Shown piece after piece: positions 83 to 27,914 of a DNA stretch of 32,000 nucleotides; position 1 is the first letter of the stretch; every line of letters begins with the position of its first letter. Both the position numbers and the translations under genes were made by a program. The notes under the pieces were generated by a model. The model did no database searches. It saw only the letters and a program-made list of their open reading frames with translations, and had not been told where the DNA came from. The DNA lies in assembly GCA_000830275.1 (NCBI GenBank), contig CP010424.1, positions 570,001-602,000 on the forward strand. The letters are read 5' to 3'. This DNA is from an archaeon GW2011_AR10. Lineage in GTDB: Archaea > Iainarchaeota > Iainarchaeia > Iainarchaeales > GW2011-AR10.

Positions 83-122
83 AAAACTCTGTTTCCGCTT
101 TCAAAAAAAAATCATTGGAAAG

Positions 123-4023: not shown

Positions 4024-4040
4024 CTATGGGGGGAATCTGA

Positions 4041-10848: not shown

Positions 10849-10858
10849 GTCAATAAAA

Positions 10859-13040: not shown

Positions 13041-13055
13041 CAATATTGCGAAACA

Positions 13056-14520: not shown

Positions 14521-15576
14521 ATGAAAAAAATGATTTTGTTCGGCTGCGGCGGCTCGGCAGGAATCAATTTTGTTAAATCATTGCGGCTTTGCAGGGAAAA
14601 AGTGAAAATTATTGGGTTTGACATAAATAGGTACTACATTGAGCTTTCGCCAGTTGACCAGCGCTACTTAATTCCAGCCATAAAGCAGCGTTCATCAGAA
14701 ACAATTGACAAGGTAAATGAACTGATAAAAAAAGGGGGGATTGATTTTGTTCACGCGCAGCCCGACCCAGAAGTAGGATATGTTTCAGAACACAGGGAAA
14801 AATTCAATGCAAAAACTTTTTTTCCTTCAAAAGAAGCCGTAAAAATCTGCCACGACAAAATGGAGTCCTACAAGACTTGGAAAAGTAAGGGAGTGCCTGT
14901 TGCAAAAACAATTCAAATTCAAAACGAGGGTTCGCTTGAAAAAGTTTTCAATGAGCTTAAGGGAACCGTGTGGATTCGCGCATCAAAGGGAGCCGGAGGA
15001 AAAGCAAGTTTGCCTGTTGACAGTGTTGATGAAGCCAGAATGTGGATAAGGTTCTGGACAAAATATGGTTTGATGTGGAATGATTTTATTGCAAGCGAGT
15101 TTTTGCCTGGAGAAGAAATTGCATGGAACAGTGTTTGGGCTGATGGAAAGCTGTTGTGCTCTCAGGGGAGAATCAGAATTGAGTGGGTTCAAGCTGGGTT
15201 GAGTCCGAGCGGCGTTACTGGCACAACAGCAATACAGAAAACAGTTCATGACGACAGCATCAATGAAATTGCCACAAAGGCAATTGAGGCAGTGGATAAA
15301 AAGCCTAACGGCATATTTTCAGTTGACATAAAACAGGACCCTGAAGGAAACCCGAAAGTAACTGAAATTAACCCCGGAAGATTTTCTACAACATCGCTTT
15401 TCTTTTCAACTTATGGAGTGAACATGCCTGAAATTTATTTGAAAGCAGCTTATGGAGAGAAAATTAAGGGGGTTTCTCCCTATAATTCAGTTGAAAAGGA
15501 CGTTTACTGGATTAGGATTCCAGATGGCGGCCCAGTTATGGTAAAAGGGGATGACTGGAAAAGCAAGCCGCTTTAA
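14521..15576 (+). CDS. ATP-grasp family ligase
   Basis: WIRASKGAGGKAS (glycine-rich ATP loop), EFLPGEE and KVTEINPGRFS (Mg/ATP-binding E-x-N). It is about 350 aa with a pre-ATP-grasp Rossmann-like N-terminus. Confidence 0.7.
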   Translation: MKKMILFGCGGSAGINFVKSLRLCREKVKIIGFDINRYYIELSPVDQRYLIPAIKQRSSETIDKVNELIKKGGIDFVHAQPDPEVGYVSEHREKFNAKTFFPSKEAVKICHDKMESYKTWKSKGVPVAKTIQIQNEGSLEKVFNELKGTVWIRASKGAGGKASLPVDSVDEARMWIRFWTKYGLMWNDFIASEFLPGEEIAWNSVWADGKLLCSQGRIRIEWVQAGLSPSGVTGTTAIQKTVHDDSINEIATKAIEAVDKKPNGIFSVDIKQDPEGNPKVTEINPGRFSTTSLFFSTYGVNMPEIYLKAAYGEKIKGVSPYNSVEKDVYWIRIPDGGPVMVKGDDWKSKPL

Positions 15577-15589
15577 CTTTAATTCTCTT

Positions 15590-16312
15590 ATGCTTGATAG
15601 TATGCAGGCAAAAGCAGTGATTTTTGATTACCATGGCACGCTTGTTGATCCATGGAAGCGATACCTAGAATCTTTTTCGCAGGCAATGAAAAAATGCTGC
15701 AATTCGGCTGTTACTGATAGGGAATTCATAAAAGAACAGCGGAGAGCAGGCACTCCAACACATAAAATATTGGAGAGCATTTTAAAAAAATCGGGTTTTC
15801 CTCAGTCCTCAGAGCTCATAGAAGAAATTAACAATTATAGAAGGACCCTTGTTTCCAGTCCTGATTTTTTTAGGGAAAACCCTGACACATTAATTGAAAG
15901 CGCAAAAGAAACTCTGCAAAAGATGAAGAAACAGGGAGCAAAGCTTTTTCTGGTTTCATTAATTCCACTTTTAGACCATTCAGAAGAGAGAAAAATAAAA
16001 AAACTTATACATAATCAGTTGGTGGCTTATGAACTGGAAAAAGAATTCAGCGAGGTTTTCATTGAAATAACTCCTTATGGAAAAAAATTCGGCAACGTCA
16101 AGCTAAACGCTTTCAAGAAAATTAATGAAAAAAACGGTTTTTCTTCTAATGAATGCGTTGTTGTGGGAGACTCTGAAATCGAGCTTAATGCCGGAAAAAC
16201 ACTCGGAATGAAAACAGTAGGCGTTCTAACTGGAATGAGCAGCAGGGAGAGGCTAGAAAAATTAAAGGTTGACAGAATAATAGGGTCGGTTGCAGAACTG
16301 GAACTTTTTTAG
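15590..16312 (+). CDS. HAD superfamily hydrolase (phosphoglycolate phosphatase/HAD-IA-like) with a variant motif I
   Basis: Motif I is VIFDYHGTLVD. Motif IV is VVGDSEIELNAG. A cap-domain-length insert lies between them. ATG at 15590 or 15602. The track start at 15551 overlaps the ATP-grasp gene. Confidence 0.75.
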   Translation: MLDSMQAKAVIFDYHGTLVDPWKRYLESFSQAMKKCCNSAVTDREFIKEQRRAGTPTHKILESILKKSGFPQSSELIEEINNYRRTLVSSPDFFRENPDTLIESAKETLQKMKKQGAKLFLVSLIPLLDHSEERKIKKLIHNQLVAYELEKEFSEVFIEITPYGKKFGNVKLNAFKKINEKNGFSSNECVVVGDSEIELNAGKTLGMKTVGVLTGMSSRERLEKLKVDRIIGSVAELELF

Positions 16313-17931
16313 CCGAACCACTTTGCCCTGTACTGAATAGGAATGTCAATTAATGTGTGCTCTCCCGACCTAAGAGCTTCCCTAAAAATTCTTTTTAGTT
16401 CATCGTTTTTTCCGGGCCTAAATGTTTTGAAACCATAGGACTCACCGAGCTTCAGAAAATCAGGGTTTTCTGCTTCCACTTCATAAGTTGTGCCGGAAGA
16501 AATCTGCTGGTTGTGTCTGATCAAGCCATAGCCTCCATCATTAAACACTACAGCCATAAACGGCAAATCAAGCCTCTTGGAAGTGTTAAGCGGTCCTGGC
16601 AACATATTCAAGCCGCCGTCACCCAAAACAGCAATTACGTTTCCTTTATCCCCAGTGTGTTTTTGGTAAAGTTTTGCAGCATTGGCTGCAGGCAAAGCAA
16701 AAGCCATTGTGGAAAATCCGTTGGAGAACAGCACACGGTTTCTTGAAACAGGGTTAAACATCAGGCCAACGTACTGCTTGTGCAATCCAACATCGCATGT
16801 TAAAATGTCATCCGGGCCAACGGCTTCACCCAATGCTTTAAGAACCTGCTGTGGCCAGAAAGGAAAAGCGCTTCCGTCAGAAAAGTCAAGGATTTTATGC
16901 AGTTTCTCTCTTTCCTCTTTTGGGTCAATTAACTTCTTCCCCGCCTTGAAATTCTTTCCTGCGCTGCTAGTGAGGAACTGCAAATACTTCTTTACGTTAC
17001 CTGTCAACTCAACGTGCGGTCTGTAAAATTCCTTTGAATTGTGGGGCGTGGCATCAATGTGCAGAACTTTTGGCTCAGGCATTGTCTTCCAAGTTGATGG
17101 CTTGACCCCCTCAGCATAGTCGTAACCCAAAGCAATCAAGAGATCAGATCTTTTGAATATTTCCTCATAAATGCTAAGGTGCCTGCTGACTGTGCCTATG
17201 AAAAGAGGGTGATCAGAGGAAATAGAATTTTTTCCGTGAAAAGAAGTAATGACAGGAATGTTGAATTTTTCTGCAAACTTTTTCAGTTCCTCGTGGGCTC
17301 CAAGCCTGTTGACAATCCCGCCTGCAAGTATTAGCGGGCTTTTTGAATTCCTTATCAGCTCGGCTGCAAAATGCAGAATCGAATCATCATAGCCCAGTTC
17401 TTTTGTTGGAAGCCTTTCAGAACGCTGTTCTGGAAAATCCCCTTTCAACGCGTCCCTGACAACAGTAATGTGAACAGGCCCTGGCCTTTCAGACTTAGCT
17501 ATGGAAAAAGCAAGGGAAATGACATTAGGAATACTGTCATGCGGCTTCAAAGTTGTTGAGCGCTTTGTTACAGGCGCCATTACTTTCTCAATGTCAATGA
17601 ATTGATGCGACCCCTCCACACAGTCCTCCAATGGCAGCTGGTCGCTTAAAGCAACAACAGGCGAGTAATCCTGCTTTGCGTTTGCAAGACCGCTGACAAG
17701 GTTTGTTGCTCCCGGTCCAAGAGTTGAAAAGCAAACTCCCGGCTCTTTTGAGAGCCTCCCCCAAGCGTCAGCCATTATTGCTGCTTCATGCTCATGCCTG
17801 ACTGTAATGAACTTGATGCTTGACTCCTTCAGGTCTGCAGGCAGGCTTGTAAGGTCATCTCCAAAAAGGCCGAAAATGTATTTAACGCCCTGCTCTTCCA
17901 AGGATTTTACCAGAAGCCGGGAACCCCTCAT
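16309..17931 (-). CDS. Thiamine-diphosphate-dependent enzyme, acetolactate synthase large subunit-like (three-domain)
   Basis: N-terminal Pyr domain (VRHEHEAAIMADAWGR, GPGATN). C-terminal ThDP motif VLGDGGLNM...VVFNDGGYG. The stop overlaps the HAD stop (TTAG). Confidence 0.85.
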   Translation of the reverse strand: MRGSRLLVKSLEEQGVKYIFGLFGDDLTSLPADLKESSIKFITVRHEHEAAIMADAWGRLSKEPGVCFSTLGPGATNLVSGLANAKQDYSPVVALSDQLPLEDCVEGSHQFIDIEKVMAPVTKRSTTLKPHDSIPNVISLAFSIAKSERPGPVHITVVRDALKGDFPEQRSERLPTKELGYDDSILHFAAELIRNSKSPLILAGGIVNRLGAHEELKKFAEKFNIPVITSFHGKNSISSDHPLFIGTVSRHLSIYEEIFKRSDLLIALGYDYAEGVKPSTWKTMPEPKVLHIDATPHNSKEFYRPHVELTGNVKKYLQFLTSSAGKNFKAGKKLIDPKEEREKLHKILDFSDGSAFPFWPQQVLKALGEAVGPDDILTCDVGLHKQYVGLMFNPVSRNRVLFSNGFSTMAFALPAANAAKLYQKHTGDKGNVIAVLGDGGLNMLPGPLNTSKRLDLPFMAVVFNDGGYGLIRHNQQISSGTTYEVEAENPDFLKLGESYGFKTFRPGKNDELKRIFREALRSGEHTLIDIPIQYRAKWFG

Positions 17932-18002
17932 ATTAAATCAGCCAATACTCTTAATACGTAAAACCAAATAAAAGCTTGTTTATATTAATTTTTAGTTGGT
18001 TT

Positions 18003-19364
18003 ATGGAAAAAAAAAGCTTCATTTTCAGGGTTCTTTCAAGGATTTTGCCTGAAAACAAGAGGGAACCTGAATTTGTTTCAAGCATTTCAATGTGGCTTCT
18101 GGCCGGCCTGCTACTGCACCTTATTTTGTTGCCTTTTGCTTTTCACTCAGATTTTTTATACATACACGGCAGTGCTTTCCAGTTATCGCATAATGGCGTA
18201 ATAAACATTTACAGTTATCTAGAAGAAAACAACTTGTGTGAAGGACTTGAAAATGCGTGCTTTGGTTATCCTCCCATAACATATTTTTTCTTTGGTGCGA
18301 CACAATTTATTGCAAAACCATTGCTGATAAATTTTGAAGAATGGGTTGACAGCATTGTTGAACTCCACAACAAAGAAGGTGTGCAGGAACTATTTTTTGG
18401 GTTTAACTCGAGCAACTGGAATGCGCTTCTTTTGAAACTTCCTTACCTTTTCTTTGACTTTGGTATTGCAGTAATTCTTCTGCATTTAATTGAAGACAAA
18501 AAGAAAGCAATTTTTGCAATGGTTTTCTGGCTCTTTAATCCAGTGGTTATTTATTCGCCTTTTCTTTTCTCGCAGTTTGACATAATCCCTGTCTTTTTTA
18601 TTGCGCTTGCATTGCTTTTCGCAAAAAAAGGAAAAGATATTGAGGCAATGGTTTCGCTAGGAATTGGTTTCGCATTCAAGCTTTTTCCAGTTCTCCTAAT
18701 ACCAATCGCTGCAATTATTTTGGGAAAAAAATTTTTTAGAACCATAAAACTAGGTTTAGTCGGAATTGCGCCTTTCATCATTGCTTCAATTCCTTTTTTC
18801 TTTACCCCAATTTACTGGAAGAGCCTGTTCGGCGCAAGCACAACCCCTTATGTTGTGCTTCCGCTGGGGATTTTTTTGTCAAGGCTTTTTGAAATGAATT
18901 TTGGGCTTGGAGTGCTTGAAAATACTCCGATATTCCATTTAGGGTATTTTCTGATAATTGCGCTTGTATGGGTTAAGAGAAAGTCGCCTAGGGAAGAACT
19001 GTACAAATATTTTTTGCTTGTTTTCTTTTGGCTTTTCATTTTTATTTTTATGAGACCGCATTACTTCATCTGGATTATTCCAACGCTTGCCATGTTCATT
19101 GCAAATGAAAAAAAATATTTACTGCCAAGCATTCTTCTGATAATTTTTTATGTGATTGCATTTATTCTGCCGTTTGATTACATGACCTGGGAATTGTTCT
19201 ACATAACTGACAAAGCATTTTTTTCATCGCTTCCAATGCCGGGAGCACTAATTGACTTGTTTTTTCCCTTTCCAATTTTTTACAGGCTCTCAAGAGTTTT
19301 TTTTGTTCTAACTAGTTTCTGGTTTGTTTTAGAATTATTAAAGAAAAAACAAAAAGGAAATTGA
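18003..19364 (+). CDS. Polytopic membrane protein, GT-C fold glycosyltransferase-like (DUF2029/GT87-like)
   Basis: More than 10 hydrophobic segments. The N-terminal loop HSDFLYIHGSAF...NIYSY...FGYPPITYFFFG resembles the DUF2029 signature (D..Y...YPP). FKLFPVLLIP block present. ATG at 18003 is preferred over TTG at 17976. Confidence 0.5.
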   Translation: MEKKSFIFRVLSRILPENKREPEFVSSISMWLLAGLLLHLILLPFAFHSDFLYIHGSAFQLSHNGVINIYSYLEENNLCEGLENACFGYPPITYFFFGATQFIAKPLLINFEEWVDSIVELHNKEGVQELFFGFNSSNWNALLLKLPYLFFDFGIAVILLHLIEDKKKAIFAMVFWLFNPVVIYSPFLFSQFDIIPVFFIALALLFAKKGKDIEAMVSLGIGFAFKLFPVLLIPIAAIILGKKFFRTIKLGLVGIAPFIIASIPFFFTPIYWKSLFGASTTPYVVLPLGIFLSRLFEMNFGLGVLENTPIFHLGYFLIIALVWVKRKSPREELYKYFLLVFFWLFIFIFMRPHYFIWIIPTLAMFIANEKKYLLPSILLIIFYVIAFILPFDYMTWELFYITDKAFFSSLPMPGALIDLFFPFPIFYRLSRVFFVLTSFWFVLELLKKKQKGN

Positions 19365-19368
19365 TTCC

Positions 19369-20145
19369 ATGAGAATTGTGAGAATATTCATTGTCAGCAT
19401 GGAGGAACCGTTTTTTCTCCCGGGTTTTTTTGAGAAAATCATTGAGAAAAACAGGGAAAAAATTGTTGGAATGACTGTCTTGCCACCAAAAGAAAGCCTC
19501 GTGAAAATTATGCTAAATGAAATCAGGGTCAATGGTTTAGGGAATTTTTCAATAAAGGGGCTGAAATTTGCTTACTTGAAATCAGTGGATTTTTTTGGAA
19601 ATTTTCTCCAGCAAAAAAAGGTTTATTCACTCAGAGGCCTTGCAAAAAAATATTCAATTCCGGTAATTGAAACGCGCAACGTTAACGATGAAAAGTATAT
19701 CGAAAAACTTCAAGGCATTAATCTAGACCTAATTATTGCGCAGTCCCCCCAAGTTTTCAGCAAGAAACTGCTAGAGGTAGCAAAAATCGGGTGCATTAAC
19801 AAGCATGCCTCGCTTCTCCCAAAATACAGGGGGTTGCACCCAATAGTGTGGGCTATTGCAAACGGTGAAAAAGAAATCGGAGTAACAGTCCACTTTATGG
19901 AGGAAAAAGTTGATTCCGGTCCTGTAATCGCACAAAAAAGTTTTAGGCTAAAAAAAGGCGACACAATTGACAAACTTTATGAAAAGGTATTTAAGGAGGC
20001 GGCAGTTTTGATAATTAAAGCAATAAAGGATATTGAGGAAAAGAAATTAAGAACGTTCAGGCAAAAAGGAAAGGGCAGCTATTATTCTGTGCCAGATAAA
20101 GAGACTATTGTTAAATTCAGGAAAAACTTGGCTGGGCTGAAATGA
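19369..20145 (+). CDS. Formyltransferase (Fmt/ArnA N-terminal/PurN family), probable sugar N-formyltransferase
   Basis: INKHASLLPKYRG (N-x-H-x-SLLPxxRG) and EEKVDSGPVIAQ (catalytic Asp region). No Fmt tRNA-binding C-terminal domain is evident. It overlaps the next gene by ATGA. Confidence 0.8.
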   Translation: MRIVRIFIVSMEEPFFLPGFFEKIIEKNREKIVGMTVLPPKESLVKIMLNEIRVNGLGNFSIKGLKFAYLKSVDFFGNFLQQKKVYSLRGLAKKYSIPVIETRNVNDEKYIEKLQGINLDLIIAQSPQVFSKKLLEVAKIGCINKHASLLPKYRGLHPIVWAIANGEKEIGVTVHFMEEKVDSGPVIAQKSFRLKKGDTIDKLYEKVFKEAAVLIIKAIKDIEEKKLRTFRQKGKGSYYSVPDKETIVKFRKNLAGLK

Positions 20146-21056
20146 AAGACAACAAAATAGCAGCAACAATACAGGTTGACATGGACCCTTTATGGAGCCA
20201 GCTTGAATACTATGGCCATAGCGGAGAAATTCATCCGGATGTTTTCTATGAAACCGGGCTTCCCCGCTTTTTGGATTTGTTCAGGAAGAACAACGTTAAG
20301 GCCACTTTTTTTGTGGTTGGAAAAGACGCTGAAAACAAGCACAAAAAGGAATTGTTAAAACAAATCCGCGAAGAAGGCCATGAAATTGCAAACCATTCAT
20401 TTTCCCACCCACTCGGCTTAAGCAGTTTGCCGAAAAAAGAAATTGAAACAGAGGTCAGAAAAGCAGAAAATGCCATCAAAAAAATCACTGGAATGAAGCC
20501 GGCTGGATTTAAAGCACCTGGATGGGATCTGAGCTCAAAGTTGTTGGATATTTTAGAAGAAAATAATTATGTTTATGATGCCTCGCTTCTCCCGACATTT
20601 ACAATCCTTCCGATTTATTTGTTTGAGAGAATATTTGGGAGAAAAAAACTCAATCAATTCCATGGGCCAAACTTAAGTTCTGGATTCGCACCACTGCACC
20701 CTTACACTCCTTCAATAGATTCTATTGAAAAAATTGGTGAAAGGGAAATTGTTGAAATCCCAAACACTGTTGTTCCGATTTTCAGGTTTCCTTACCACAG
20801 CAGCCCAGTTTTTTTATTTGGCTTGAATTTTTTTAGGGTCAGCTATTTCCTTACAAGGAAGAGGCACCTTCCACTAAACTATGAATTCCACTTAATTGAT
20901 TTGGCTGACAACATTGCGGACAGGAGAATTCCATCTTACAGGTTGCCTCCTTTGGAGAAAAGAATGCGCATCTGCAGGTTTATTGTAAAAGCACTGGTGA
21001 ACGATTACAGAATTGTTACTTCCCGTGATCTTGCAGAAGAATTCAAACCCAGATAG
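20142..21056 (+). CDS. Polysaccharide deacetylase family protein, ArnD-like (possible deformylase)
   Basis: IQVDMDPLW (a DxD-type motif like ArnD IDVDT, not TFDD), ATFFVVGKDA and HEIANHSFSHP. Confidence 0.7.
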   Translation: MKDNKIAATIQVDMDPLWSQLEYYGHSGEIHPDVFYETGLPRFLDLFRKNNVKATFFVVGKDAENKHKKELLKQIREEGHEIANHSFSHPLGLSSLPKKEIETEVRKAENAIKKITGMKPAGFKAPGWDLSSKLLDILEENNYVYDASLLPTFTILPIYLFERIFGRKKLNQFHGPNLSSGFAPLHPYTPSIDSIEKIGEREIVEIPNTVVPIFRFPYHSSPVFLFGLNFFRVSYFLTRKRHLPLNYEFHLIDLADNIADRRIPSYRLPPLEKRMRICRFIVKALVNDYRIVTSRDLAEEFKPR

Positions 21057-21097
21057 AACTTAAATTTATTATTGCGAGTAAATTTTTAGGTGATTGG

Positions 21098-21829
21098 TTG
21101 ATTAAATTCGTAATCCCTGCTTTCAATGAAGCGGAAAACATCTCAAAAGTTCTGCAAAAAATTGAAAAATTAATGAAGCGCATGAATAAAAACTATGCAT
21201 TAATTGTAATCGATGATGGCAGCACGGACAACACAAAGCAACTGTTGAAAGGCTTTAAAAAAAATATGTATCTAATTTCTCACGAAAAAAACAAAGGCGT
21301 TGCTGAAGTTTTCAAAACCGCTTTTAATTCAATCGAGCCAAAACTTAAGGAAAACGATTTGGTTGTTACACTGGAGGCTGACCTGACCTCTGACCTAAAG
21401 GATTTGCCTGAAATGATTGCAAAAGCCGAACAGGAGGCTGATGTGGTGCTTGCATCCTGCTATGCTCCTGGCGGGAGCATAAAAAACATTTCTTTTGAGA
21501 GAAGGTTTTTGAGCACTGGAGCAAACACACTAATGAAAATGGTTTTCCCGATGCAGGGCATTCACACTTACTCTTCTTTTTTCAGGGTTTACAGGGGAAG
21601 CGCAATAAAAAAAGCAATTAAAAATTACGGAAAACATTTGATTGAAGAAGATGGATTCACCTGCGTGGTGGAGCTCCTCATTAAAATGGACATGCTTGGT
21701 TTGCGCTTTGCCGAAGTGCCAACTACTCTTGACTTAAGCGTAAGAAAAGGAAAAAGCAAAATGAATGTTCCAAAAACAATTGCAGCATATTTAAAGCTCA
21801 TTCACCGTTATGCATGGAAAAGAGGATAG
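21098..21829 (+). CDS. GT2 polyprenyl-phosphate glycosyltransferase (Dpm1/ArnC/AglK-like)
   Basis: FVIPAFNEAENI, IVIDDGSTDNT, HEKNKGVAE and LEADLTSD. It is a short soluble GT-A of about 240 aa. TTG start lies 4 nt behind AGGTGA. Confidence 0.8.
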   Translation: MIKFVIPAFNEAENISKVLQKIEKLMKRMNKNYALIVIDDGSTDNTKQLLKGFKKNMYLISHEKNKGVAEVFKTAFNSIEPKLKENDLVVTLEADLTSDLKDLPEMIAKAEQEADVVLASCYAPGGSIKNISFERRFLSTGANTLMKMVFPMQGIHTYSSFFRVYRGSAIKKAIKNYGKHLIEEDGFTCVVELLIKMDMLGLRFAEVPTTLDLSVRKGKSKMNVPKTIAAYLKLIHRYAWKRG

Positions 21830-21870
21830 CGGGATACGTTTAATACGGTTTTGCAGCTAAAATTCAATTA

Positions 21871-23382
21871 ATGCCTTTCCTAGCGCAAGAGAACAGGGCC
21901 AAGCTGCTGCTGCTTTTGCTGGCAATTGCGTTTCTTGTACGGGTTTACGCTATTGACAGGCCGATCCTTGAAGTAATGTCCACAAGGCAGGCTTTAACTG
22001 CAATGACTGCAAGGAACTTAAACGAAAGCAACTTTGACCTGCTGCACCCAGAAATAGACCTATTTGAAGGCAGGGAAAAATCCTATTATGCGCTGGAGCT
22101 ACACGTGATGCCAGCGATTACTGCGCTGCTCTACAGCCTGTTTGGAGTACAGGAATGGATTGGCAGGCTGGTATCAATACTGTTTTTTCTCGGAGCACTT
22201 ATTTTCATGTTTTTGCTCCTTGAAAAGTTCTTTAACCTGAAAGTTGCATTTATTGGCAGCCTTTTTTTCTCGCTTTCCCCGCTTACGGTAATTTATGCGA
22301 GAACATTCCAGCCGGAATCATCAATGCTTTTCTTCATGGTCGGAGCTTTGTACTTTTTCAGCGAATGGGTTGACAGGCAGGGAAATGCGGAACTCGCATT
22401 GAGCGCGGTTTTCACTTCGCTTGCACTGCTCATTAAGCCGACTGCAATTGCAGTGCTTCCTGCAATAGCGTTTCTCGCATTCAACAAGTTTGGCTGGAAA
22501 GCACTTTCAAACTGGAAGGCATGGGCCGCAATAATTCTTGTGCCATCAATTGCACTGGTTGCCTGGAGTTACTGGGCGTTTCTACTGCAACAGGAAAGCC
22601 CGGGAAGTTTTGCAAGCGTTTTGGGTGGGTGGCTGCAGCGAGACCTGGAGGAATTAACTGCTGTTACCCCGTTTTCGCCGGAACTTTATTTTGTTTTGTT
22701 TGAGAGGCTTGCCGGAAGAATCCTCACGCCAATTGGTTTTGCGCTCGCAGCAATAGGCTTGATGCTGAAACCAGAAAAAAAAGCGCAGCTGGTTTTCCAT
22801 TTTTTCCTTTTAGGAGGCTTAATTTCATTCCTTGTTTTTTACTGGCAGAACTTTGTGCACGACTACTATCAATTGCCTTTGGCTGCTGCACTAGCTGCAT
22901 TTGTTGGCATAGGGGGAAACGCAATACTTGAATCAAGGCAAATAAGGGAACGAGTGATTGACAAAAGAATAATTGCTGCCGGACTGGTTTTGCTTGTTGG
23001 GACAACGTTTTACTATTACACCCTGCAGGCATTCCACCCTTACACTAAAACCCCTGGAGAGCACTTGATGTTCGTTGAAGCAGGAGAAAAAGTTGATTCA
23101 TTAATTGAAAAAGATGCAAAGGTTTTGGTTGCATCAGAGAACGCGAAAGGCCTCCTGTATTACACCGACAGGAAGGGAAACGTATTTGCAGTTGGGCAAA
23201 CCAATGCCGAATCAATTGAAAACCTGCAGGAAAAAATCGGCATTGGCTTTACACATTTCCTTTACGCGAAAACAAAAAACTTTGCTTTGCCTGAAGAAAT
23301 CCATAGTTACCTGAAAGAAAACTTTGAAACGGTTTTGGCAGAGGAAGAAAAATACTATTTGTACGATTTAAGCCCCGATTAA
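21871..23382 (+). CDS. Polytopic membrane glycosyltransferase, GT-C fold (ArnT/PMT, GT83/GT39-like)
   Basis: 503 aa with many hydrophobic segments, followed by a soluble C-terminal ~100 aa. The layout and the position next to the Dpm1/ArnC-like GT2 are typical of ArnT/PMT_2 proteins. I could not see a clean DE motif in the first loop. Confidence 0.5.
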   Translation: MPFLAQENRAKLLLLLLAIAFLVRVYAIDRPILEVMSTRQALTAMTARNLNESNFDLLHPEIDLFEGREKSYYALELHVMPAITALLYSLFGVQEWIGRLVSILFFLGALIFMFLLLEKFFNLKVAFIGSLFFSLSPLTVIYARTFQPESSMLFFMVGALYFFSEWVDRQGNAELALSAVFTSLALLIKPTAIAVLPAIAFLAFNKFGWKALSNWKAWAAIILVPSIALVAWSYWAFLLQQESPGSFASVLGGWLQRDLEELTAVTPFSPELYFVLFERLAGRILTPIGFALAAIGLMLKPEKKAQLVFHFFLLGGLISFLVFYWQNFVHDYYQLPLAAALAAFVGIGGNAILESRQIRERVIDKRIIAAGLVLLVGTTFYYYTLQAFHPYTKTPGEHLMFVEAGEKVDSLIEKDAKVLVASENAKGLLYYTDRKGNVFAVGQTNAESIENLQEKIGIGFTHFLYAKTKNFALPEEIHSYLKENFETVLAEEEKYYLYDLSPD

Positions 23383-24639
23383 AACCTTCGATGCAAGCCA
23401 CCAAACTTCCCTGTCCCAGAATGCCGGGTAAAAAAGTACTGCTGCGAGGTTTAGCAGCAGCGAATAAGCCAAAACTGCAAGGAAAAGCCACCACAAATAT
23501 TTGTTTTTGTTGGATTTAAACCACTGCATGAAAGGCAGCGCAAAAAGTGGAAGGAACGGAACAAAGTACCTTGGCCCGAATGAGGCAATTCCGCTTGCAA
23601 GGTAAGAGACTGAAGAGTAAAGGAGCCAAGTGAAAACAAATGAGAGGGCAAGCCAGACTGCTTCATCTTTGTGTTCTCTGTAGAATTCCCTGAAACCTAA
23701 AAGTGAAAAAATTAAAATTGGAGAGAAAACAAGCAGCCCAAATTTAGGGGAAAAAATAAGGGCAGGCAATCCGAAAAAAATGTTCCCAACTCCAACAGTG
23801 TCGAGCTGCCTTAACGGAACATGGCCTACTTTAATCACCAAATTGGTGTAGATTATAGTTACAGCAACTGTTATTGCAATTGGAATTGAGAAAACCGCAA
23901 GCCCCCTGAATTTCTTTTTCTTTGCAAGCAGAAAAGCTTTTGCCCCGGCAAGAATTGCCATTGGATAATTTGCCGCAAAAGCCACAGACATCAAAAGCGA
24001 GGAAGGCAAAAACTTTTTTCTGACAAAAAAGAAATAAAATGAAAGAGTTGTCAAAAACATCAGCAGGGTTGCAGGCCATAGGCTTTTGGAGTAAAACCAT
24101 ATTGGGGTTGCAAAAGCCCAAATCAATGTCACAATTATTGCGTGTCTTTCACTCGCACCGTAATGCTTAAGAATTTTGTAGAGAAGAAACAGGGTTAGCA
24201 CAGAAACAATCATCATGAGGTAAATTGCTGCGCTTTCAAGAAACGTGGAGTTAGCAAAAGGAAACAAAAAAATGCTGAAAACCAGCGGCATTCCGATTGG
24301 GTGCCCTGGAAAACAAAGCTCTCCTTTTCCGATTCCATGGTACATGCAATGGCGGTCTGCTCCCTCAATTCCCTGCGTGTTGGAGTAAATTGCGCCGGCA
24401 TCCGTTTGATTGTTATAGTAGGTGTCAGTGTAATTGTTTTCAAGGTCAAGGTCTAGGTCCTCAGCAATGCTGTAAATTGTTGCAAGGTAATGCGGCTCAT
24501 CCCCTGAAAGAACTCTGGGCAGGCCGAGAAAAACTCCGGAAATTCTGAAGTTTTCATCGAAAGAATACTGAATGAATGTTGGAATAAGGTAAAGAAAAAA
24601 AACCAGCAATGCAAGGAAAATTTTTTGTTTTTTCTCCAT
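23368..24639 (-). CDS. Polytopic membrane protein, GT-C-like glycosyltransferase candidate
   Basis: Multiple TM segments. The first extracytoplasmic loop has LSGDEPHYLATIYSIAEDLDLDLENNY, an acidic DE motif as in GT-C enzymes. ATG at 24639 lies 4 nt after the upstream stop. The 3' end overlaps the convergent gene by 15 nt. Confidence 0.45.
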   Translation of the reverse strand: MEKKQKIFLALLVFFLYLIPTFIQYSFDENFRISGVFLGLPRVLSGDEPHYLATIYSIAEDLDLDLENNYTDTYYNNQTDAGAIYSNTQGIEGADRHCMYHGIGKGELCFPGHPIGMPLVFSIFLFPFANSTFLESAAIYLMMIVSVLTLFLLYKILKHYGASERHAIIVTLIWAFATPIWFYSKSLWPATLLMFLTTLSFYFFFVRKKFLPSSLLMSVAFAANYPMAILAGAKAFLLAKKKKFRGLAVFSIPIAITVAVTIIYTNLVIKVGHVPLRQLDTVGVGNIFFGLPALIFSPKFGLLVFSPILIFSLLGFREFYREHKDEAVWLALSFVFTWLLYSSVSYLASGIASFGPRYFVPFLPLFALPFMQWFKSNKNKYLWWLFLAVLAYSLLLNLAAVLFYPAFWDREVWWLASKVLIGA

Positions 24640-24643
24640 GCAC

Positions 24644-25516
24644 TCAAACCTTCCTTGCAATGAATTCAAACAAAAAAGTTTTTCCGGTGAGTTTTTGTAG
24701 CAAATAAATTGCACCAATAACTAAAGTCATCAATGGCCCCTCCTGTAACTTGTCCACAGGAATTTCGCTGCGGTTAAACCACTCTTCCTTAAACCCTGTT
24801 TCTTTAAAGTATAAGCGCATTATTTCCGGAGTTGGGTGAAAAGTGTGCTGCAACTGAAAACACTTCTGTGCGGGAGAATTAATTTTTCCAAGAGTTGAAT
24901 GGTAAAGCATGCCAGAAAGCTGCGAGATAAGGCTGCTTGAATCAATTGTGGTTAGCAAGAGCAGGCCATTCTTCTTCAGTTTTTTTCTTGCGCCTTTCAG
25001 CACTGACTTCATGCTTGGAACATGCTCTATTACTTCGTGCAGAGTTATTACGTCAAAGTAGCTGTCAGGCGCCTTCAAGTTTTCAATTGTTGCTACACTT
25101 GCCTTCAAGCCGAAATTCTTTCGCGCATAATGCACGGCATACTTTGAAACATCAATGCCTTGCACTTCCCAGCCTCTTTCCCTAGCGATGTCAAGGAAGA
25201 CTCCGGTAGCACAGCCTACATCAAGCATTTTTCCTTTCGCTGAAAATTTTTCAAGCTGTTCAAGCAGGTTAGTGTAATTGTTTATTATTGAATCGTTTTC
25301 AAGTTTCCTGTAATCGGCTGTGTAGGAGTCATAGCGCTTTGGGTACTTTTTTTTGTAGTAGTCTCCTGAATAGATTTCCAGGTCACGCGAGTAAACGCTT
25401 GAATCAGTGAATACTAGGCCGCATGAACCGCAGCTTAAAACCCTGTATTCCGGGAAATTAAACAGGACAGAGCTTTGTTTCGAACTGCACAGGTCACATT
25501 TTACTTGAAATTCCAT
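24644..25516 (-). CDS. Class I SAM-dependent methyltransferase with an N-terminal Cys4 zinc-ribbon-like motif
   Basis: CDLCSS...CGSCGLVF, then motif I MLDVGCATGVF and DVITLHEVIEHV. Confidence 0.8.
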   Translation of the reverse strand: MEFQVKCDLCSSKQSSVLFNFPEYRVLSCGSCGLVFTDSSVYSRDLEIYSGDYYKKKYPKRYDSYTADYRKLENDSIINNYTNLLEQLEKFSAKGKMLDVGCATGVFLDIARERGWEVQGIDVSKYAVHYARKNFGLKASVATIENLKAPDSYFDVITLHEVIEHVPSMKSVLKGARKKLKKNGLLLLTTIDSSSLISQLSGMLYHSTLGKINSPAQKCFQLQHTFHPTPEIMRLYFKETGFKEEWFNRSEIPVDKLQEGPLMTLVIGAIYLLQKLTGKTFLFEFIARKV

Positions 25517-26534: not shown

Positions 26535-27914
26535 TCATCTTATTGCATTTGCAGCAAGCTGGTCCACCGCAATGAAGGACTGCTTCATCACTTGGTCCAT
26601 GTCAAGGTAGTTGAACTGGCCTGTCCTTCCAATAAAATAAATGTTGTCAATTTCTTTAAGGTGATTCATTACCTTTGAGAAATGCTCCCTGTAATCTGTC
26701 AGGTAAACAGGGTAAACGTGCGGTGCCTTCAGCAAAAAATAGTTTGTTACCTCGCTTTTTTTCAGGAAACCATCTTTTTCTAGTTCCGCGATTGCCTGTT
26801 CAAACAACTGTTCCTTGCTTTTATTCCAAGTGGCATCGCCTTCAAAGCACGAGAACTCAACGCTTAACATGTTCTCATCTGCCGGGCTTAGCTCTTGAGA
26901 CCACTTGTTTGTTTCAGTCAACCGGTGAAAGGAACGGTTCATGAAGTAAATGTACGGCACTTGCATTATGTCCTGCTTTGTTGAAGCAATGTAAAGCAGT
27001 ACAAGGGAGCGATACCTCAGCTTTGAAGCCGACAACAGAATATCTTTTGGCGGTTTTGGAAAAAGCATTTTTGCAAACAGTGGCACTGGAAGAGAAGAGA
27101 ACAAGTATGAAGCAGCAAAGGTTTTTGTTTTTCCGCCTGAAACGCATTCAACACTGAAACCGTTTTTGGTTTTTTTAACTTTTGAAACCTTTGAGTTGAG
27201 GTAAATTTTTCCTCCACGCTTTTGAACCCGTTCAGCAATTCTTTCAGCAAGCATTCCTATGCCCTTTCTCGGGTAAAAAAGCAGGAGGTTGCTGCGTTCA
27301 ATCTGCGATGCTATCTCTCCTTTCTTTGGCTTGGAAAAAATTGATTTAAGAGTTTTAATGAGGTTGACTTTTGCTACGCGCTGGTTTGCCCAGAAAGCGT
27401 CAAGCTCGCTGCACTTAACCCCCCAAAATTTTTCAGTGTAAGGCTTGAAGAAGATTTTGTAAAGGTGGTTTCCAAAGCCTGCCCTGGCCCAGTCCTCAAA
27501 GTTTTTTATTTCCGGTTTCCTGAAAAATTTTTTTGTGGAGGCCTTTGCAAAGCTTAAGCCTGAAACAATTGATGTTGTAAGGCCCATTTCGAAAAGCGCA
27601 GTGCGGATGTTCAATGGGTAATTGACGAAGCGGTCATTGAAGTAGAGGAGGCAGCGGCGCTCAAACGAAAGCAAGTCATCTGCAATAAGTTCCTTGAACA
27701 ATTCCTGAATATCCTCTTTTTCAGTGTAAAATGGATGGGGGCCAAAGTCCATGTAATAGGGGCCTTCCTTGATTGTTGCAGCAAGTCCTCCGACAAAAGA
27801 GTTTGCCTCAACCACTTCAACCTCAAACCCTTTTTCAAGCAGCCTGTGAGCAGCACTCAGTCCCGCTAAGCCAGCGCCCAAAACAAGTGCCTTTTTTCCC
27901 TTCATTCCCACCAC
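26535..27914 (-). CDS. FAD-dependent oxidoreductase, UDP-galactopyranose mutase / amine-oxidase-like
   Basis: VLGAGLAGLSAA...VGGLA dinucleotide fold. YTEKFWG and GRTGQFNYLDMD resemble Glf/UGM blocks. Start is GTG at 27914 or ATG at 27905. Confidence 0.65.
   Translation of the reverse strand: MVGMKGKKALVLGAGLAGLSAAHRLLEKGFEVEVVEANSFVGGLAATIKEGPYYMDFGPHPFYTEKEDIQELFKELIADDLLSFERRCLLYFNDRFVNYPLNIRTALFEMGLTTSIVSGLSFAKASTKKFFRKPEIKNFEDWARAGFGNHLYKIFFKPYTEKFWGVKCSELDAFWANQRVAKVNLIKTLKSIFSKPKKGEIASQIERSNLLLFYPRKGIGMLAERIAERVQKRGGKIYLNSKVSKVKKTKNGFSVECVSGGKTKTFAASYLFSSLPVPLFAKMLFPKPPKDILLSASKLRYRSLVLLYIASTKQDIMQVPYIYFMNRSFHRLTETNKWSQELSPADENMLSVEFSCFEGDATWNKSKEQLFEQAIAELEKDGFLKKSEVTNYFLLKAPHVYPVYLTDYREHFSKVMNHLKEIDNIYFIGRTGQFNYLDMDQVMKQSFIAVDQLAANAIR

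What the first reader, a model, noticed from the sequence alone, without database searches (positions are those of the whole stretch)
19369..23382. Arn-like block: formyltransferase, ArnD-like deformylase, ArnC/Dpm1-like GT2 and ArnT/PMT-like GT-C in a probable archaeon
Four consecutive + strand genes are tightly packed, with an ATGA overlap at 20142 and gaps of about 40 nt. They reproduce the enzyme logic of the bacterial arn (pmrHFIJKLM) pathway. A sugar N-formyltransferase has the NxHxSLLPxxRG and catalytic Asp blocks. A NodB-fold protein has the ArnD-type DxD motif (IQVDMD) rather than TFDD. A short GT2 is of the polyprenyl-phosphate-sugar synthase type. A large GT-C membrane transferase completes the set. 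Upstream in the same island are candidates for the earlier steps: a UGDH-like gene (3250), a UXS/ArnA-C-like SDR with STSDVYG/YAASK (5114) and a DegT aminotransferase (7847). In bacteria this route delivers 4-amino-arabinose to lipid A. An archaeon has no lipid A, so the acceptor would be something else, such as an S-layer protein, a pilin or a lipid-linked glycan. This would place a transient N-formyl protection strategy on a dolichol-type carrier outside its known context. A simpler alternative is that the formyltransferase N-formylates the nonulosonic acid. 5-N-formyl-legionaminic acid is known from a haloarchaeal glycan.
Basis: partly seen in the sequence, partly recalled or inferred. Interest (0 to 1): 0.75.

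Follow-up and report, generated by a model that had tools for sequence, protein, structure and literature searches.

The report
Archaeal lipid-carrier amino-sugar tailoring operon
A tiny groundwater archaeon carries a tight operon with the same four enzyme types as the bacterial Arn (polymyxin-resistance) pathway, but comparison with relatives suggests it swaps an acetyl for a formyl group on a lipid-carried amino sugar, not that it copies Arn.

Summary
There are four tightly packed + strand genes, with an ATGA overlap and 41-nt gaps. They are Formyl_trans_N with an intact N-H-D triad, a NodB deacetylase with all metal and catalytic residues, a short Dpm1/ArnC-type GT2, and a PMT_2 GT-C. The operon really starts one gene earlier, at a GT87-like GT-C. 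The host is the DPANN archaeon GW2011_AR10 (Diapherotrites).

None of the four proteins reaches an Arn equivalog cutoff. The GT-C gives no BLAST hit to ArnT, and no ArnE/F is present. The proposed upstream precursor genes read better as a legionaminic-acid cluster plus a 2,3-diacetamido-sugar route.

In relatives, the formyltransferase family sits next to a deacetylase in 8 of 14 contexts (within 3 kb in a ninth), about half of them with no GT-C nearby, and almost never next to an aminotransferase. The deacetylase family is always near a PMT_2 GT-C and usually a short GT2. In those loci FemAB or a carbamoyltransferase takes the formyltransferase's place.

Best reading (0.4): a dolichyl-phosphate amino-sugar module where deacetylation is followed by N-formylation before GT-C transfer. 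The Arn-like transient-formyl order remains a live rival (0.3). I class it as a new variant of a known kind, of moderate interest.

The parts
17979..17987 (+). TATA-box-like element (tttatatta) about 20 nt upstream of the ATG at 18003. It lies in the 72-nt divergent intergenic region and is the candidate archaeal promoter of the operon.
   Evidence: Read directly from the sequence. Function is inferred, not tested.
18003..19364 (+). First gene of the operon: a GT87-like polytopic membrane glycosyltransferase (GT-C type). The mechanical ORF starts at 17976; the public gene call starts at 18003.
   Evidence: Pfam GT87, 31.7 bits. Many hydrophobic segments. Only a 4-nt gap to the next gene. A 369-aa relative (38% identity over 114 aa, weak GT87 hit) sits between FT and the PMT_2 gene in L092.
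19369..20145 (+). N10-formyl-tetrahydrofolate-type formyltransferase (FT). It belongs to a distinct ~259-aa stand-alone family with a family-specific long helix at residues 44-80.
   Evidence: Pfam Formyl_trans_N, 99.6 bits. N144, H146 and D182 are invariant in 40 homologs. The family profile scores best on ArnA-N among solved structures. The AF2 model has pLDDT 93. More than 150 clusters at 50% identity score above 235 bits over the full length.
20142..21056 (+). Cytoplasmic NodB/CE4 metal-dependent de-N-acylase (DAC). It has no signal peptide or TM segment.
   Evidence: Pfam Polysacc_deac_1, 84.2 bits. H85, H89 and H250 are invariant, and D13 and D15 at least 90% conserved, in 41 homologs. 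The AF2 model has pLDDT 93.5. The best folds are 3rxz and 3qbu; ArnD 8t0j ranks 8th. hhalign against ArnD gives 98.6% probability over 112 columns only. No TM segment found.
21098..21829 (+). Short soluble Dpm1/ArnC-type GT2, a candidate dolichyl-phosphate sugar synthase. It has an EAD motif in place of DAD and lacks the C-terminal TM helices of ArnC.
   Evidence: Pfam GT2, 81.6 bits. Best solved relative is P. furiosus Dol-P-Man synthase (70 bits over residues 2-238), then ArnC at 44-50 bits. D40, D44 and D95 are invariant against DAC-linked GT2s and ArnC. It is 35.5% identical over the full length to the GT2 that overlaps the DAC homolog in a PVC-group bacterium, L175.
21871..23382 (+). PMT_2-family GT-C membrane glycosyltransferase with a C-terminal extracytoplasmic domain. 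It is the candidate transferase that moves the lipid-linked sugar to a surface acceptor.
   Evidence: Pfam PMT_2, 60.9 bits. Multiple TM segments. An acidic residue (E34) is conserved, and R39, Q40 and R48 are invariant, in loop 1 across 16 homologs. hhalign against the ArnT family gives 96.9% probability over 305 columns at 15% identity. There is no BLAST hit to ArnT and no sequence hit in the PDB.
23368..24717 (-). Convergent LA_3751/LA_3752-like polytopic membrane protein, a putative third GT-C-like transferase. Its 3' end overlaps the 3' end of the PMT_2 gene by 15 nt. The public gene call is 23368-24639.
   Evidence: NCBIfam NF047440, 55 bits, below the cutoff of 200. TM segments present. 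Gene call. Its membership in the pathway is inferred from position only.

Best explanation
The block is a five-gene archaeal operon in the order GT87-like GT-C, formyltransferase, NodB de-N-acylase, Dpm1-type GT2, PMT_2 GT-C. It tailors an amino sugar on a polyprenyl (dolichyl) phosphate carrier and hands it to surface acceptors.

Proposed steps, all inferred and none shown:
1. On the cytoplasmic face, the GT2 loads an N-acetylated amino sugar from a nucleotide donor onto dolichyl phosphate. A 2-acetamido or 2,3-diacetamido hexose made by the neighbouring WbpB/WecB-type genes is possible.
2. The zinc-type NodB enzyme removes an N-acetyl group.
3. The formyltransferase re-acylates the freed amine with formate from N10-formyl-THF. 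The net effect is an N-acetyl to N-formyl exchange.
4. An unidentified flippase moves the lipid-linked sugar outward.
5. The PMT_2 and GT87-like GT-C enzymes transfer it to an S-layer or other surface glycan.

What is shown is narrower: the family identities, intact catalytic residues, tight operon structure and conserved gene neighbourhoods. The order of the formyltransferase and deacylase steps, and the sugar, are inferred.
For: FT-family neighbourhoods, 14 informative contexts:
- A deacetylase is the immediate neighbour in 8, often with a 4-nt overlap: the window, Salinibacter L003, L089, L091, L092, L094, L099 and the Haloarcula plasmid L180. It lies within 3 kb in L093.
- A GT-C is nearby in only 4 of the 14. 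The FT-deacetylase pair therefore works without lipid loading and GT-C transfer in about half the cases. That does not fit a protect, load, deprotect order.
- Among the 11 relatives' loci tested (tblastn, E <= 1e-6), a DegT aminotransferase is near FT only in L093. This suggests the amine comes from deacetylation.

DAC-family neighbourhoods, 5 contexts:
- PMT_2 is present in 5 of 5 and a short GT2 in 4 of 5.
- The position next to DAC is occupied by FT (window), FemAB (a JGI contig and the Nanoarchaeota locus L174) or a carbamoyltransferase nearby (L176). These enzymes can only act on a free amine.

Fusion proteins link FT to membrane enzymes. P0318 is a membrane GT2 fused to FT, and P0454 is FT fused to a polytopic membrane domain.

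A WbpB-type UDP-GlcNAc 3-dehydrogenase lies directly upstream of DAC-FT in L092, and another is in the window at 2261.
Against: - The same four families in the order FT then DAC also occur in the canonical arn operon, where formylation precedes lipid loading.
- Among solved structures the FT profile scores highest on ArnA-N.
- For a polyprenyl-P GT2 + deacylase + GT-C triad, the known paradigm (Arn; Bordetella Lgm and Francisella systems, from my own knowledge) ends with a free amine, not a re-acylated one.
- No N-formyltransferase acting on a lipid-linked sugar is known to me.
- The FT-specific helix 44-80 is not clearly amphipathic.
- The context sample is small (14 and 5 loci). Several deacetylases paired with FT (Salinibacter, L099) are of the DUF3473 subtype, not the window's subtype.
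- No flippase gene is in the block.
- A supply of N10-formyl-THF in this reduced genome was not checked.
Confidence: 0.4

Rival explanations
1. A true Arn-type logic. The formyltransferase N-formylates a nucleotide-linked amino sugar, and the GT2 loads the formamido sugar onto dolichyl phosphate. The NodB enzyme then removes the formyl group on the cytoplasmic face, and the GT-C transfers a cationic free amino sugar to a non-lipid-A acceptor.
For: - All four Arn enzyme families sit in one tight operon.
- The FT family profile scores best on the ArnA formyltransferase domain. FT is 35% identical to ArnA-N over 154 aa, and the GT2 is 28% identical to ArnC.
- ArnD is among the top structural matches of DAC. 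hhalign gives 98.6% probability against ArnD and 96.9% against ArnT.
- The DAC family is always linked to PMT_2 and usually to a short GT2. In L174 it also sits near two small EamA proteins resembling ArnE/F, an aminotransferase, an SDR and a hexapeptide acyltransferase.
- All four families recur in L089/L090.
Against: - No protein reaches an Arn equivalog cutoff.
- DAC lacks the 41-residue insertion of ArnD and aligns to it over only 112 columns.
- There is no dedicated aminotransferase, decarboxylase or ArnE/F in the block. The only DegT is 10 kb upstream, inside the legionaminic-acid cluster.
- FT-deacetylase pairs occur without any GT2 or GT-C in Salinibacter, and without a GT-C in L094. 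No GT2 or GT-C was detected with my own seed HMMs in L093 or L099.
- FemAB or a carbamoyltransferase replaces FT beside DAC in relatives.
Confidence: 0.3
2. The formyltransferase N-formylates the legionaminic-type nonulosonic acid made by the upstream cluster, as in 5-N-formyl-legionaminic acid of Halorubrum sp. PV6. The deacetylase would free N5 first, and the GT2 and GT-C genes would be unrelated neighbours.
For: - A complete legionaminic-type cluster lies at 5114-12007. NeuB and NeuC pass NCBIfam cutoffs.
- Halorubrum PV6 has a predicted formyltransferase inside its Leg cluster (PMC6137143).
- Making a 5-N-formyl group from a GlcNAc-derived precursor would need deacetylation followed by formylation. 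This last point is my inference.
Against: - The FT gene is 7.4 kb and six genes away from the last Leg gene, with strand switches, and sits in a different operon.
- None of the 11 relatives' loci tested has a NeuB homolog within the fetched flanks (tblastn, E <= 1e-6).
- FT's conserved partners are a deacetylase, GT2 and GT-C, not NulO genes.
Confidence: 0.06
3. The four genes are merely co-resident members of a large, mosaic surface-glycan island and act on different sugars, with no shared pathway.
For: - The window is packed with glycan genes of many kinds.
- The nearest relatives of FT, DAC and the GT-C come from different lineages with different neighbours, so the block is a mosaic.
- The GT-C's closest homologs sit with a 327-aa GT2 and an SDR, without FT or DAC.
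Against: - The genes show translational coupling and 41-nt gaps.
- FT-DAC, DAC-GT2 and DAC-PMT_2 adjacency recurs across bacteria and archaea.
- FT is fused to a membrane GT2 and to a membrane protein.
Confidence: 0.12

Closest known systems
Bacterial Arn (PmrHFIJKLM) pathway for L-Ara4N modification of lipid A (ArnA-N, ArnC, ArnD, ArnT, ArnE/F)
   Same: The same four enzyme superfamilies sit in one operon, with the formyltransferase next to the deacylase. The GT2 is of the polyprenyl-phosphate type and the last enzyme is a GT-C. The FT profile's best solved relative is ArnA-N.
   Different: - All scores are far below the Arn equivalog cutoffs.
- FT is a stand-alone 258-aa protein with an extra helix and no fused decarboxylase.
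- The GT2 lacks ArnC's TM helices.
- DAC lacks ArnD's insertion.
- The GT-C is only 15% identical to ArnT at profile level.
- There is no ArnB or ArnE/F in the block.
- The host is an archaeon without lipid A.
- Comparative context suggests a different order of steps.
Polyprenyl-P-HexNAc synthase + deacetylase + GT-C triads (Bordetella LgmABC, Francisella FlmF2/NaxD/FlmK, mycobacterial PpgS/Rv3779). Cited from my own knowledge; not tested here.
   Same: The conserved core of the window's DAC family is DAC + short GT2 + PMT_2 GT-C. NCBIfam lists PpgS among the GT2's hits (41 bits).
   Different: Those systems have no formyltransferase and deliver a free amine to lipid A or arabinogalactan. NaxD belongs to a different deacetylase fold. 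No sequences of these proteins were compared here.
Archaeal Dol-P-sugar routes that add sugars outside the membrane (Haloferax AglD/AglJ GT2 enzymes with the GT-C AglS; Agl23). Pathway roles are from my own knowledge.
   Same: A Dpm1-type GT2 is paired with a GT-C in an archaeon. NCBIfam gives weak hits to AglJ (38.7 bits) and the halophile Dol-P hexose transferase (31.2) for the GT2, and to Agl23 (31.7) for the GT-C.
   Different: Those routes carry neutral hexoses and have no N-acyl tailoring enzymes. All scores are far below cutoffs.
XrtA/PEP-CTERM-associated polysaccharide deacetylase (TIGR03006). The FemAB-like partner is from my own knowledge of TIGRFAM descriptions.
   Same: TIGR03006 is the best NCBIfam hit of DAC (71 bits). 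Salinibacter and L099 pair a DUF3473-type deacetylase with the FT family. DPANN relatives pair the window-type DAC with FemAB.
   Different: The score is far below the cutoff of 276. The window's DAC lacks DUF3473. The function of the XrtA-type pair is itself uncharacterised as far as I know.
Sugar N-formyltransferases acting on nucleotide sugars (WbkC, WlaRD, FdtF, VioF, PseJ, Rv3404c)
   Same: Same catalytic fold and triad, and all are recovered by the family profile (76-116 bits). Folds are similar.
   Different: These score lower than ArnA-N and Fmt. To my knowledge their genes normally sit beside the aminotransferase that makes the amine. The window's FT family sits beside a deacetylase instead.

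Membership tests
Arn pathway (ArnA formyltransferase domain) | Reaches the NCBIfam ArnA equivalog score, and the formyltransferase is fused to a UDP-GlcA decarboxylase domain | tested here: not met
   NF005998 scores 108 bits against a cutoff of 777, matching residues 87-238 only. The protein is 258 aa and stand-alone. The N-H-D triad is present.
Arn pathway (ArnD) | Reaches the ArnD equivalog score and aligns over the full length with ArnD, including its insertion after strand 2 | tested here: not met
   NF011923 scores 28.6 bits against a cutoff of 382. BLAST against Rosenbergiella ArnD gives E = 0.006. hhalign covers 112 columns, and the 41-residue ArnD insertion is absent. ArnD ranks 8th among fold matches.
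Arn pathway (ArnC) | Reaches the ArnC equivalog score and has the GT2 domain followed by C-terminal TM helices | tested here: not met
   NF007986 scores 57.6 bits against a cutoff of 529. The protein is 243 aa with no TM segment. Its best solved relative is a Dol-P-Man synthase, not ArnC.
Arn pathway (ArnT) | Sequence similarity to ArnT at family level | tested here: not met
   There is no NCBIfam ArnT hit, no BLAST hit to ArnT and no PDB sequence hit. Only a profile-profile relation exists: 96.9% probability at 15% identity.
Arn pathway (ArnB, ArnE/F, lipid A acceptor) | A dedicated aminotransferase and a small EamA/SMR-type flippase pair in the operon, and lipid A as acceptor | tested here: not met
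   The block 17976-24717 holds no such genes. The only DegT is at 7838, inside the Leg cluster. The host is an archaeon according to source names. The acceptor itself cannot be tested with these tools.
Formyl_trans_N superfamily (N10-formyl-THF transformylases) | Pfam score above the gathering cutoff, the catalytic Asn-His-Asp triad, and the SLLPxxRG folate loop | tested here: met
   99.6 bits against a cutoff of 26.1. N144, H146 and D182 are invariant in 40 homologs. The motif is confirmed. The fold matches Fmt, ArnA-N and WbkC.
NodB / carbohydrate esterase 4 de-N-acetylases | Pfam score above cutoff, the Asp-His-His metal triad, and the catalytic Asp and His | tested here: met
   84.2 bits against a cutoff of 23.1. 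D13, D15, H85, H89 and H250 are conserved. The model has pLDDT 93.5 and matches CE4 structures. Activity and substrate were not tested.
Dpm1-like polyprenyl-phosphate glycosyltransferases (GT2) | A GT-A domain with the nucleotide-binding DDGS.D motif and the DxD metal motif, and closest similarity to known polyprenyl-P sugar synthases | tested here: met
   Best solved relatives are PfDPMS (70 bits over residues 2-238), then ArnC and GtrB. D40, D44 and D95 are invariant, and the first DxD position is Glu. Use of a lipid acceptor is inferred, not tested.
GT-C fold, PMT_2 (GT39/GT83-like) | Pfam score above cutoff, a polytopic membrane domain, and a conserved acidic residue in the first extracytoplasmic loop | tested here: met
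   60.9 bits against a cutoff of 26.1. TM segments are present. An acidic residue is conserved at E34, and R39, Q40 and R48 are invariant. The topology of loop 1 is inferred.

The most novel reading that the evidence does not exclude
The ~259-aa formyltransferase family, FemAB-type aminoacyl transferases and carbamoyltransferases are interchangeable N-tailoring enzymes. They act after a NodB deacylase on polyprenyl-phosphate-linked (or lipid-linked glycan) amino sugars. Together they would form a widespread, uncharacterised cassette for diversifying surface-glycan N-acyl groups in bacteria and DPANN or halophilic archaea. The window's enzyme would then be the first N-formyltransferase to use a lipid-linked sugar substrate.
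Probability: 0.3. Interest if true: 0.65.

Novelty: new variant of a known kind. Interest (0 to 1): 0.5.

Why it matters
If the module works as proposed, it would show how archaea and many uncultured bacteria re-decorate amino sugars while the sugars sit on the lipid carrier. It would also assign a function to a large unannotated formyltransferase family (more than 150 clusters at 50% identity) that databases now label 'methionyl-tRNA formyltransferase'.

If the Arn-like order is right instead, transient N-formyl protection would no longer be a peculiarity of lipid A modification. It would then be a general strategy that also operates on dolichol carriers.

Either way, the block offers a defined five-gene target for reconstitution. 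It also gives a handle on the surface chemistry of DPANN archaea, which depend on cell-cell contact.

Tried and rejected
They returned mostly ordinary Fmt and ArnA genes. Only L009, L010, L031, L094, L099 and L123 were family members.
- The viral-contig scans with the FT and DAC alignments gave only partial, unrelated matches.
- Foldseek did not discriminate Fmt, ArnA-N and sugar formyltransferases for FT.
- The idea that the FT-specific helix 44-80 is a membrane-binding amphipathic helix was not supported. Its mean maximum hydrophobic moment is 0.38, against a protein-wide maximum of 0.53.
- The membrane domain of fusion protein P0454 could not be classified as GT-C.
- Literature searches found no prior description of this block, of AR10 glycosylation, or of a deacetylase-formyltransferase pair. 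The 'WbmS' search returned unrelated papers.
- I considered and rejected a PurN or Fmt housekeeping role for FT. All 14 contexts are glycan clusters, and the PurN scores are lower.
- I also rejected reading SDR 5114 and DegT 7838 as ArnA-C and ArnB equivalents. Their scores are ambiguous and they lie inside the NeuB cluster.

Full report
**1. The observation**

The four + strand ORFs exist at the stated coordinates:
- 19369-20145, 258 aa
- 20142-21056, 304 aa
- 21098-21829, 243 aa
- 21871-23382, 503 aa

The first pair overlaps in ATGA. The other two junctions are 41-nt gaps.

Pfam assigns them to Formyl_trans_N (99.6 bits), Polysacc_deac_1 (84.2), Glycos_transf_2 (81.6) and PMT_2 (60.9), all far above the gathering cutoffs.

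The block is really five genes long. A GT87-like polytopic membrane protein (public gene call 18003-19364) ends 4 nt before the formyltransferase. It is preceded by a 72-nt divergent intergenic region containing tttatatta about 20 nt upstream of its ATG. That is compatible with an archaeal TATA box and a leaderless transcript, but this is inference. A convergent LA_3751/3752-like membrane protein overlaps the 3' end of the PMT_2 gene.

**2. Origin**

The window's proteins are identical to entries of 'archaeon GW2011_AR10' (AJF60160.1 and others, on a 1.24-Mb contig). They also match Candidatus Diapherotrites / Ca. Iainarchaeum MAGs, and the same DNA is found on several metagenome contigs.

A DUF1616 protein and a geranylgeranyl reductase that passes its NCBIfam cutoff lie downstream. 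I accept the archaeal (DPANN) origin on the strength of these source names. I did not test it phylogenetically.

**3. The four proteins**

*Formyltransferase (FT).* FT belongs to a distinct family of stand-alone proteins of about 259 aa.
- In 40 homologs at 25-38% identity, N144, H146 and D182 are invariant, as are L150, P151 and G155 of the folate loop; L149, K152, Y153 and R154 are at least 90% conserved.
- Pfam and NCBIfam models match only residues 88-240.
- The N-terminal part contains a family-specific 37-residue helix at 44-80, seen in a confident AF2 model (pLDDT 93).
- The family profile scores best on the ArnA formyltransferase domain (144.6 bits). The best Fmt scores 132, WbkC 116 and PurN 93 or less.
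- Foldseek does not separate these.
- NCBIfam scores are far below every equivalog cutoff: Fmt 110.6/201.5, ArnA 108/777, PurN 80/150.
- The family is large. The best 150 representatives at 50% identity all score above 235 bits over the full length.

*Deacylase (DAC).* DAC keeps all NodB residues. D13 and D15 (VDMD) are at least 90% conserved, and H85, H89 (HSFSH) and H250 (FHLID) are invariant in 41 homologs.
- It has no TM segment or signal peptide.
- The best solved relatives by sequence and fold are H. pylori PgdA (3qbu) and an M. smegmatis deacetylase (3rxz). ArnD (8t0j) ranks 8th, with TM 0.57 and 12% identity.
- Against a family alignment of nine real ArnD proteins, hhalign gives 98.6% probability, but over only 112 central columns.
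- ArnD's 41-residue insertion is absent.
- The DxD-type first motif is shared with HpPgdA (VDID), so it is not ArnD-specific.

*GT2.* The GT2 is most similar to the P. furiosus dolichyl-phosphate mannose synthase (70 bits over residues 2-238), then to three ArnC structures (44-50 bits) and GtrB (27 bits).
- It has the DDGSTD motif and an EAD metal motif.
- D95 is invariant across related GT2s and ArnC.
- Unlike ArnC, it has no TM helices.

*GT-C.* The GT-C has many TM segments.
- Its first loop carries a conserved acidic residue (E34) and invariant R39, Q40 and R48.
- It has a profile-level relation to ArnT (96.9% probability over 305 columns at 15% identity).
- It has no BLAST or PDB sequence hit.

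*Direct comparison with a real arn operon.* I used Rosenbergiella, locus L078.

| Window protein | Arn protein | Result |
|---|---|---|
| FT | ArnA-N | 35% over 154 aa, E = 2e-27 |
| GT2 | ArnC | 28% over 173 aa, E = 3e-16 |
| DAC | ArnD | E = 0.006 |
| GT-C | ArnT | no hit |

**4. The proposed upstream 'early steps'**

The region 5114-12007 reads as a legionaminic-type nonulosonic-acid cluster. Its genes are:
- an SDR whose best hit is LegB (168 bits), with RmlB (148), ArnA-C (141) and a UXS-like model (140) close behind;
- a CMP-sugar synthetase;
- NeuB, which passes its cutoff (422 against 400);
- DegT, best as DesI (294), then PseC (224), ArnB (193) and LegC (190);
- a CBS-SDR;
- a hexapeptide acetyltransferase;
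- NeuC, which passes its cutoff (440 against 236).

The region 2261-5114 encodes an archaeal-type UDP-GlcNAc 3-dehydrogenase (326 bits), a 257-aa dehydrogenase-like protein lacking the C-terminal domain, and WecB (passes its cutoff). This suggests a 2,3-diacetamido-sugar route. Nothing there is specifically an Ara4N pathway.

**5. Synteny, from the FT side**

I could examine 14 informative FT-family contexts.
- A Polysacc_deac_1 gene is the immediate neighbour in 8: the window, Salinibacter ruber, L089/90, L091, L092, L094, L099 and a Haloarcula halobia plasmid. The two genes often overlap by 4 nt. In L093 the deacetylase lies within 3 kb.
- A PMT_2-type GT-C is close in 4: the window, L001, L089 and L092.
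- A GT2 is close in 4 to 5.
- All four families occur together in the window and in L089/L090, where the order is GT2, PMT_2, FT, DAC.
- L092 repeats a longer stretch of the window's layout: TPP enzyme, ATP-grasp, HAD, GFO, sugar dehydrogenase, DAC, FT, GT87-like, PMT_2. Identities are 31-42% for most of these (HAD 24%), and the PMT_2 genes match only at HMM level.
- None of the 11 relatives' loci tested has NeuB nearby, and only L093 has a DegT nearby.

**6. Synteny, from the DAC side**

The window's DAC has full-length homologs at 30-47% identity in Woesearchaeota, Nanoarchaeota, Omnitrophica, PVC-group and Sumerlaeia MAGs. Four of their contexts were examined.

| Context | Gene order |
|---|---|
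| JGI contig | PMT_2, LPG_synthase_TM, DAC, FemAB, aminotransferase, GT2, Epimerase_2, Hexapep, DegT, GFO, PMT |
| Nanoarchaeota L174 | PMT_2, DAC, FemAB, FemAB, aminotransferase, EamA, EamA, GT2, WecB, SDR, Hexapep |
| PVC bacterium L175 | FAD oxidase, DAC, GT2 (35.5% identical to the window's GT2, overlapping DAC), ..., PMT_2 |
| Omnitrophica L176 | DAC, PP-loop protein, 87-aa ORF, PMT_2, 88-aa ORF, carbamoyltransferase |

The conserved core of this DAC family is therefore DAC + short GT2 + PMT_2 GT-C. The acyl-type transferase next to it varies between FT, FemAB and a carbamoyltransferase.

**7. Synteny, from the GT-C side, and fusions**

The GT-C's closest homologs (27-30% identity, for example in Scalindua) sit next to a 327-aa GT2 and an SDR, without FT or DAC. 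The block is therefore a mosaic of modules with different histories.

Two fusion proteins tie the FT family to membrane glycosylation enzymes:
- P0318 is a membrane GT2 fused to FT.
- P0454 is FT fused to a domain with at least 8 TM segments.

**8. Interpretation**

I regard four points as settled:
- This is a real operon of a DPANN archaeon.
- It combines an N10-formyl-THF-type transformylase, an intact NodB deacylase, a Dpm1-type GT2 and two GT-C enzymes.
- The pairs FT-DAC, DAC-GT2 and DAC-PMT_2 recur across bacteria and archaea, far more often than chance adjacency of rare families would give.
- None of the proteins is an Arn ortholog.

The open question is the order of the formyltransferase and deacylase steps. 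The Arn order (formylate, load, deformylate, transfer) fits three observations:
- the four families occur together;
- the FT profile scores best on ArnA-N;
- the known paradigm for GT2 + deacylase + GT-C triads ends with a free amine.

The exchange order (load or not, deacetylate, then formylate) better explains four other observations:
- FT-deacetylase pairs stand without a GT-C in about half of the contexts with such a pair;
- the FT family is almost never next to an aminotransferase;
- in relatives, FT's place beside DAC is taken by FemAB or a carbamoyltransferase, enzymes that need a free amine;
- the block has no dedicated amino-sugar precursor genes.

I therefore prefer the exchange model at about 0.4, with the Arn-like model at about 0.3. 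The sample is small and no experiment exists for any member.

**9. Comparison with known systems, and novelty**

The block works like the family of 'three-component' lipid-carrier glycosylation systems and their amino-sugar variants. These include Arn, and, from my own knowledge, Bordetella Lgm, the Francisella Flm/NaxD system, mycobacterial PpgS/Rv3779 and Haloferax AglD/AglS.

It is not a member of the Arn pathway by any tested criterion. I found no paper describing this block, AR10 surface glycosylation, or a deacetylase-formyltransferase pair. That library is incomplete, so prior description elsewhere cannot be ruled out.

I rate it a new variant of a known kind and of moderate interest. 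Glycan islands in archaea are notoriously diverse and mosaic, so the gene set alone is not very surprising. The more interesting points are the recurrent FT/FemAB/carbamoyl 'N-tailoring' position next to a lipid-carrier deacylase, and the size of the unannotated FT family. Both make a concrete, testable biochemical hypothesis.

Noticed in passing
window 5114-12007 (+): A complete legionaminic-type nonulosonic-acid cluster: LegB-like SDR, CMP-sugar synthetase, NeuB (passes its NCBIfam cutoff), DegT, a CBS-domain-fused SDR (492 aa), a hexapeptide acetyltransferase and NeuC (passes its cutoff). Sialic-acid-like sugars in a DPANN archaeon are noteworthy in themselves.
   Followed up: partly
window 2261-5114 (+): An archaeal-type UDP-GlcNAc 3-dehydrogenase (326 bits), then a 257-aa nucleotide-sugar-dehydrogenase-like protein, then WecB. 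The 257-aa protein has a Rossmann start but matches only positions 113-302 of the 413-position model, so it lacks the C-terminal domain. It is possibly degenerate or neofunctionalised. L092 has a GFO gene plus a full-length dehydrogenase directly upstream of DAC-FT.
   Followed up: partly
window 12153-14174: A second NodB deacetylase (12153-13040) sits just after the Leg cluster, with its Pfam match split by a large insertion (residues 47-253 on a 124-position model). It is followed by a convergent amidinotransferase/arginine-deiminase-fold protein (13056-14174). Together they could modify the N-acyl groups of the nonulosonic acid, for example to give acetimidoyl derivatives.
   Followed up: no
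window 14521-17931; L092 1-2796: An ATP-grasp (PylC-like N-domain), a HAD hydrolase and a TPP enzyme (acetolactate-synthase-like, 441 bits, below its cutoff) lie next to the operon. They are conserved at 24-42% identity next to DAC-FT-GT-C in L092. This suggests a further, unexplained tailoring step, such as attaching an acyl or amino-acid group.
   Followed up: partly
L174 5321-12627 (Nanoarchaeota MAG) and the JGI contig of P0173: In DPANN relatives the DAC homolog is flanked by PMT_2, one or two FemAB-family genes, an aminotransferase and a short GT2. In L174 there are also two small EamA proteins resembling ArnE/F; in the JGI contig there is an LPG_synthase_TM protein. This looks like aminoacylation of a lipid-linked amino sugar in wall-less archaea.
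   Followed up: partly
P0318 (642 aa) and P0454 (1052 aa), from the representative library: Fusion proteins of the FT family. In P0318 a membrane-embedded GT2 is followed by FT. In P0454 FT is followed by an unclassified domain with at least 8 TM segments and a long soluble C-terminal region.
   Followed up: partly
L180 (Haloarcula halobia plasmid NZ_CP119788.1, record 59682-61306): A cultured haloarchaeon carries the same overlapping deacetylase-formyltransferase pair on a plasmid, followed by an LPG_synthase_TM protein and a sulfatase-family protein. A divergent GT2 and a second deacetylase lie alongside. This organism is tractable for testing the pair.
   Followed up: partly
window 26535-27914 (-); L175 5752-7026: A FAD amine-oxidase / UDP-galactopyranose-mutase-like protein (PRK07208 type, 347 bits, below its cutoff of 389) lies downstream in the window. 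A FAD oxidase of the same Pfam families sits immediately upstream of DAC-GT2 in the PVC-group bacterium. tblastn found no direct similarity between the two at E <= 1e-4.
   Followed up: no
L089 18-1959: The metagenomic locus that holds all four families also has a second, more distant formyltransferase (256 aa), followed by a second short GT2 and a DUF2304 small membrane protein. That makes two FT-GT2 modules in one cluster.
   Followed up: no
window 115-735 (+) and 7428-8283 (-): ORFs of 124-206 aa lie antisense to, or overlap, well-supported genes (the GT4 at 123-1271, NeuB and DegT). They are probably spurious products of mechanical ORF calling.
   Followed up: no
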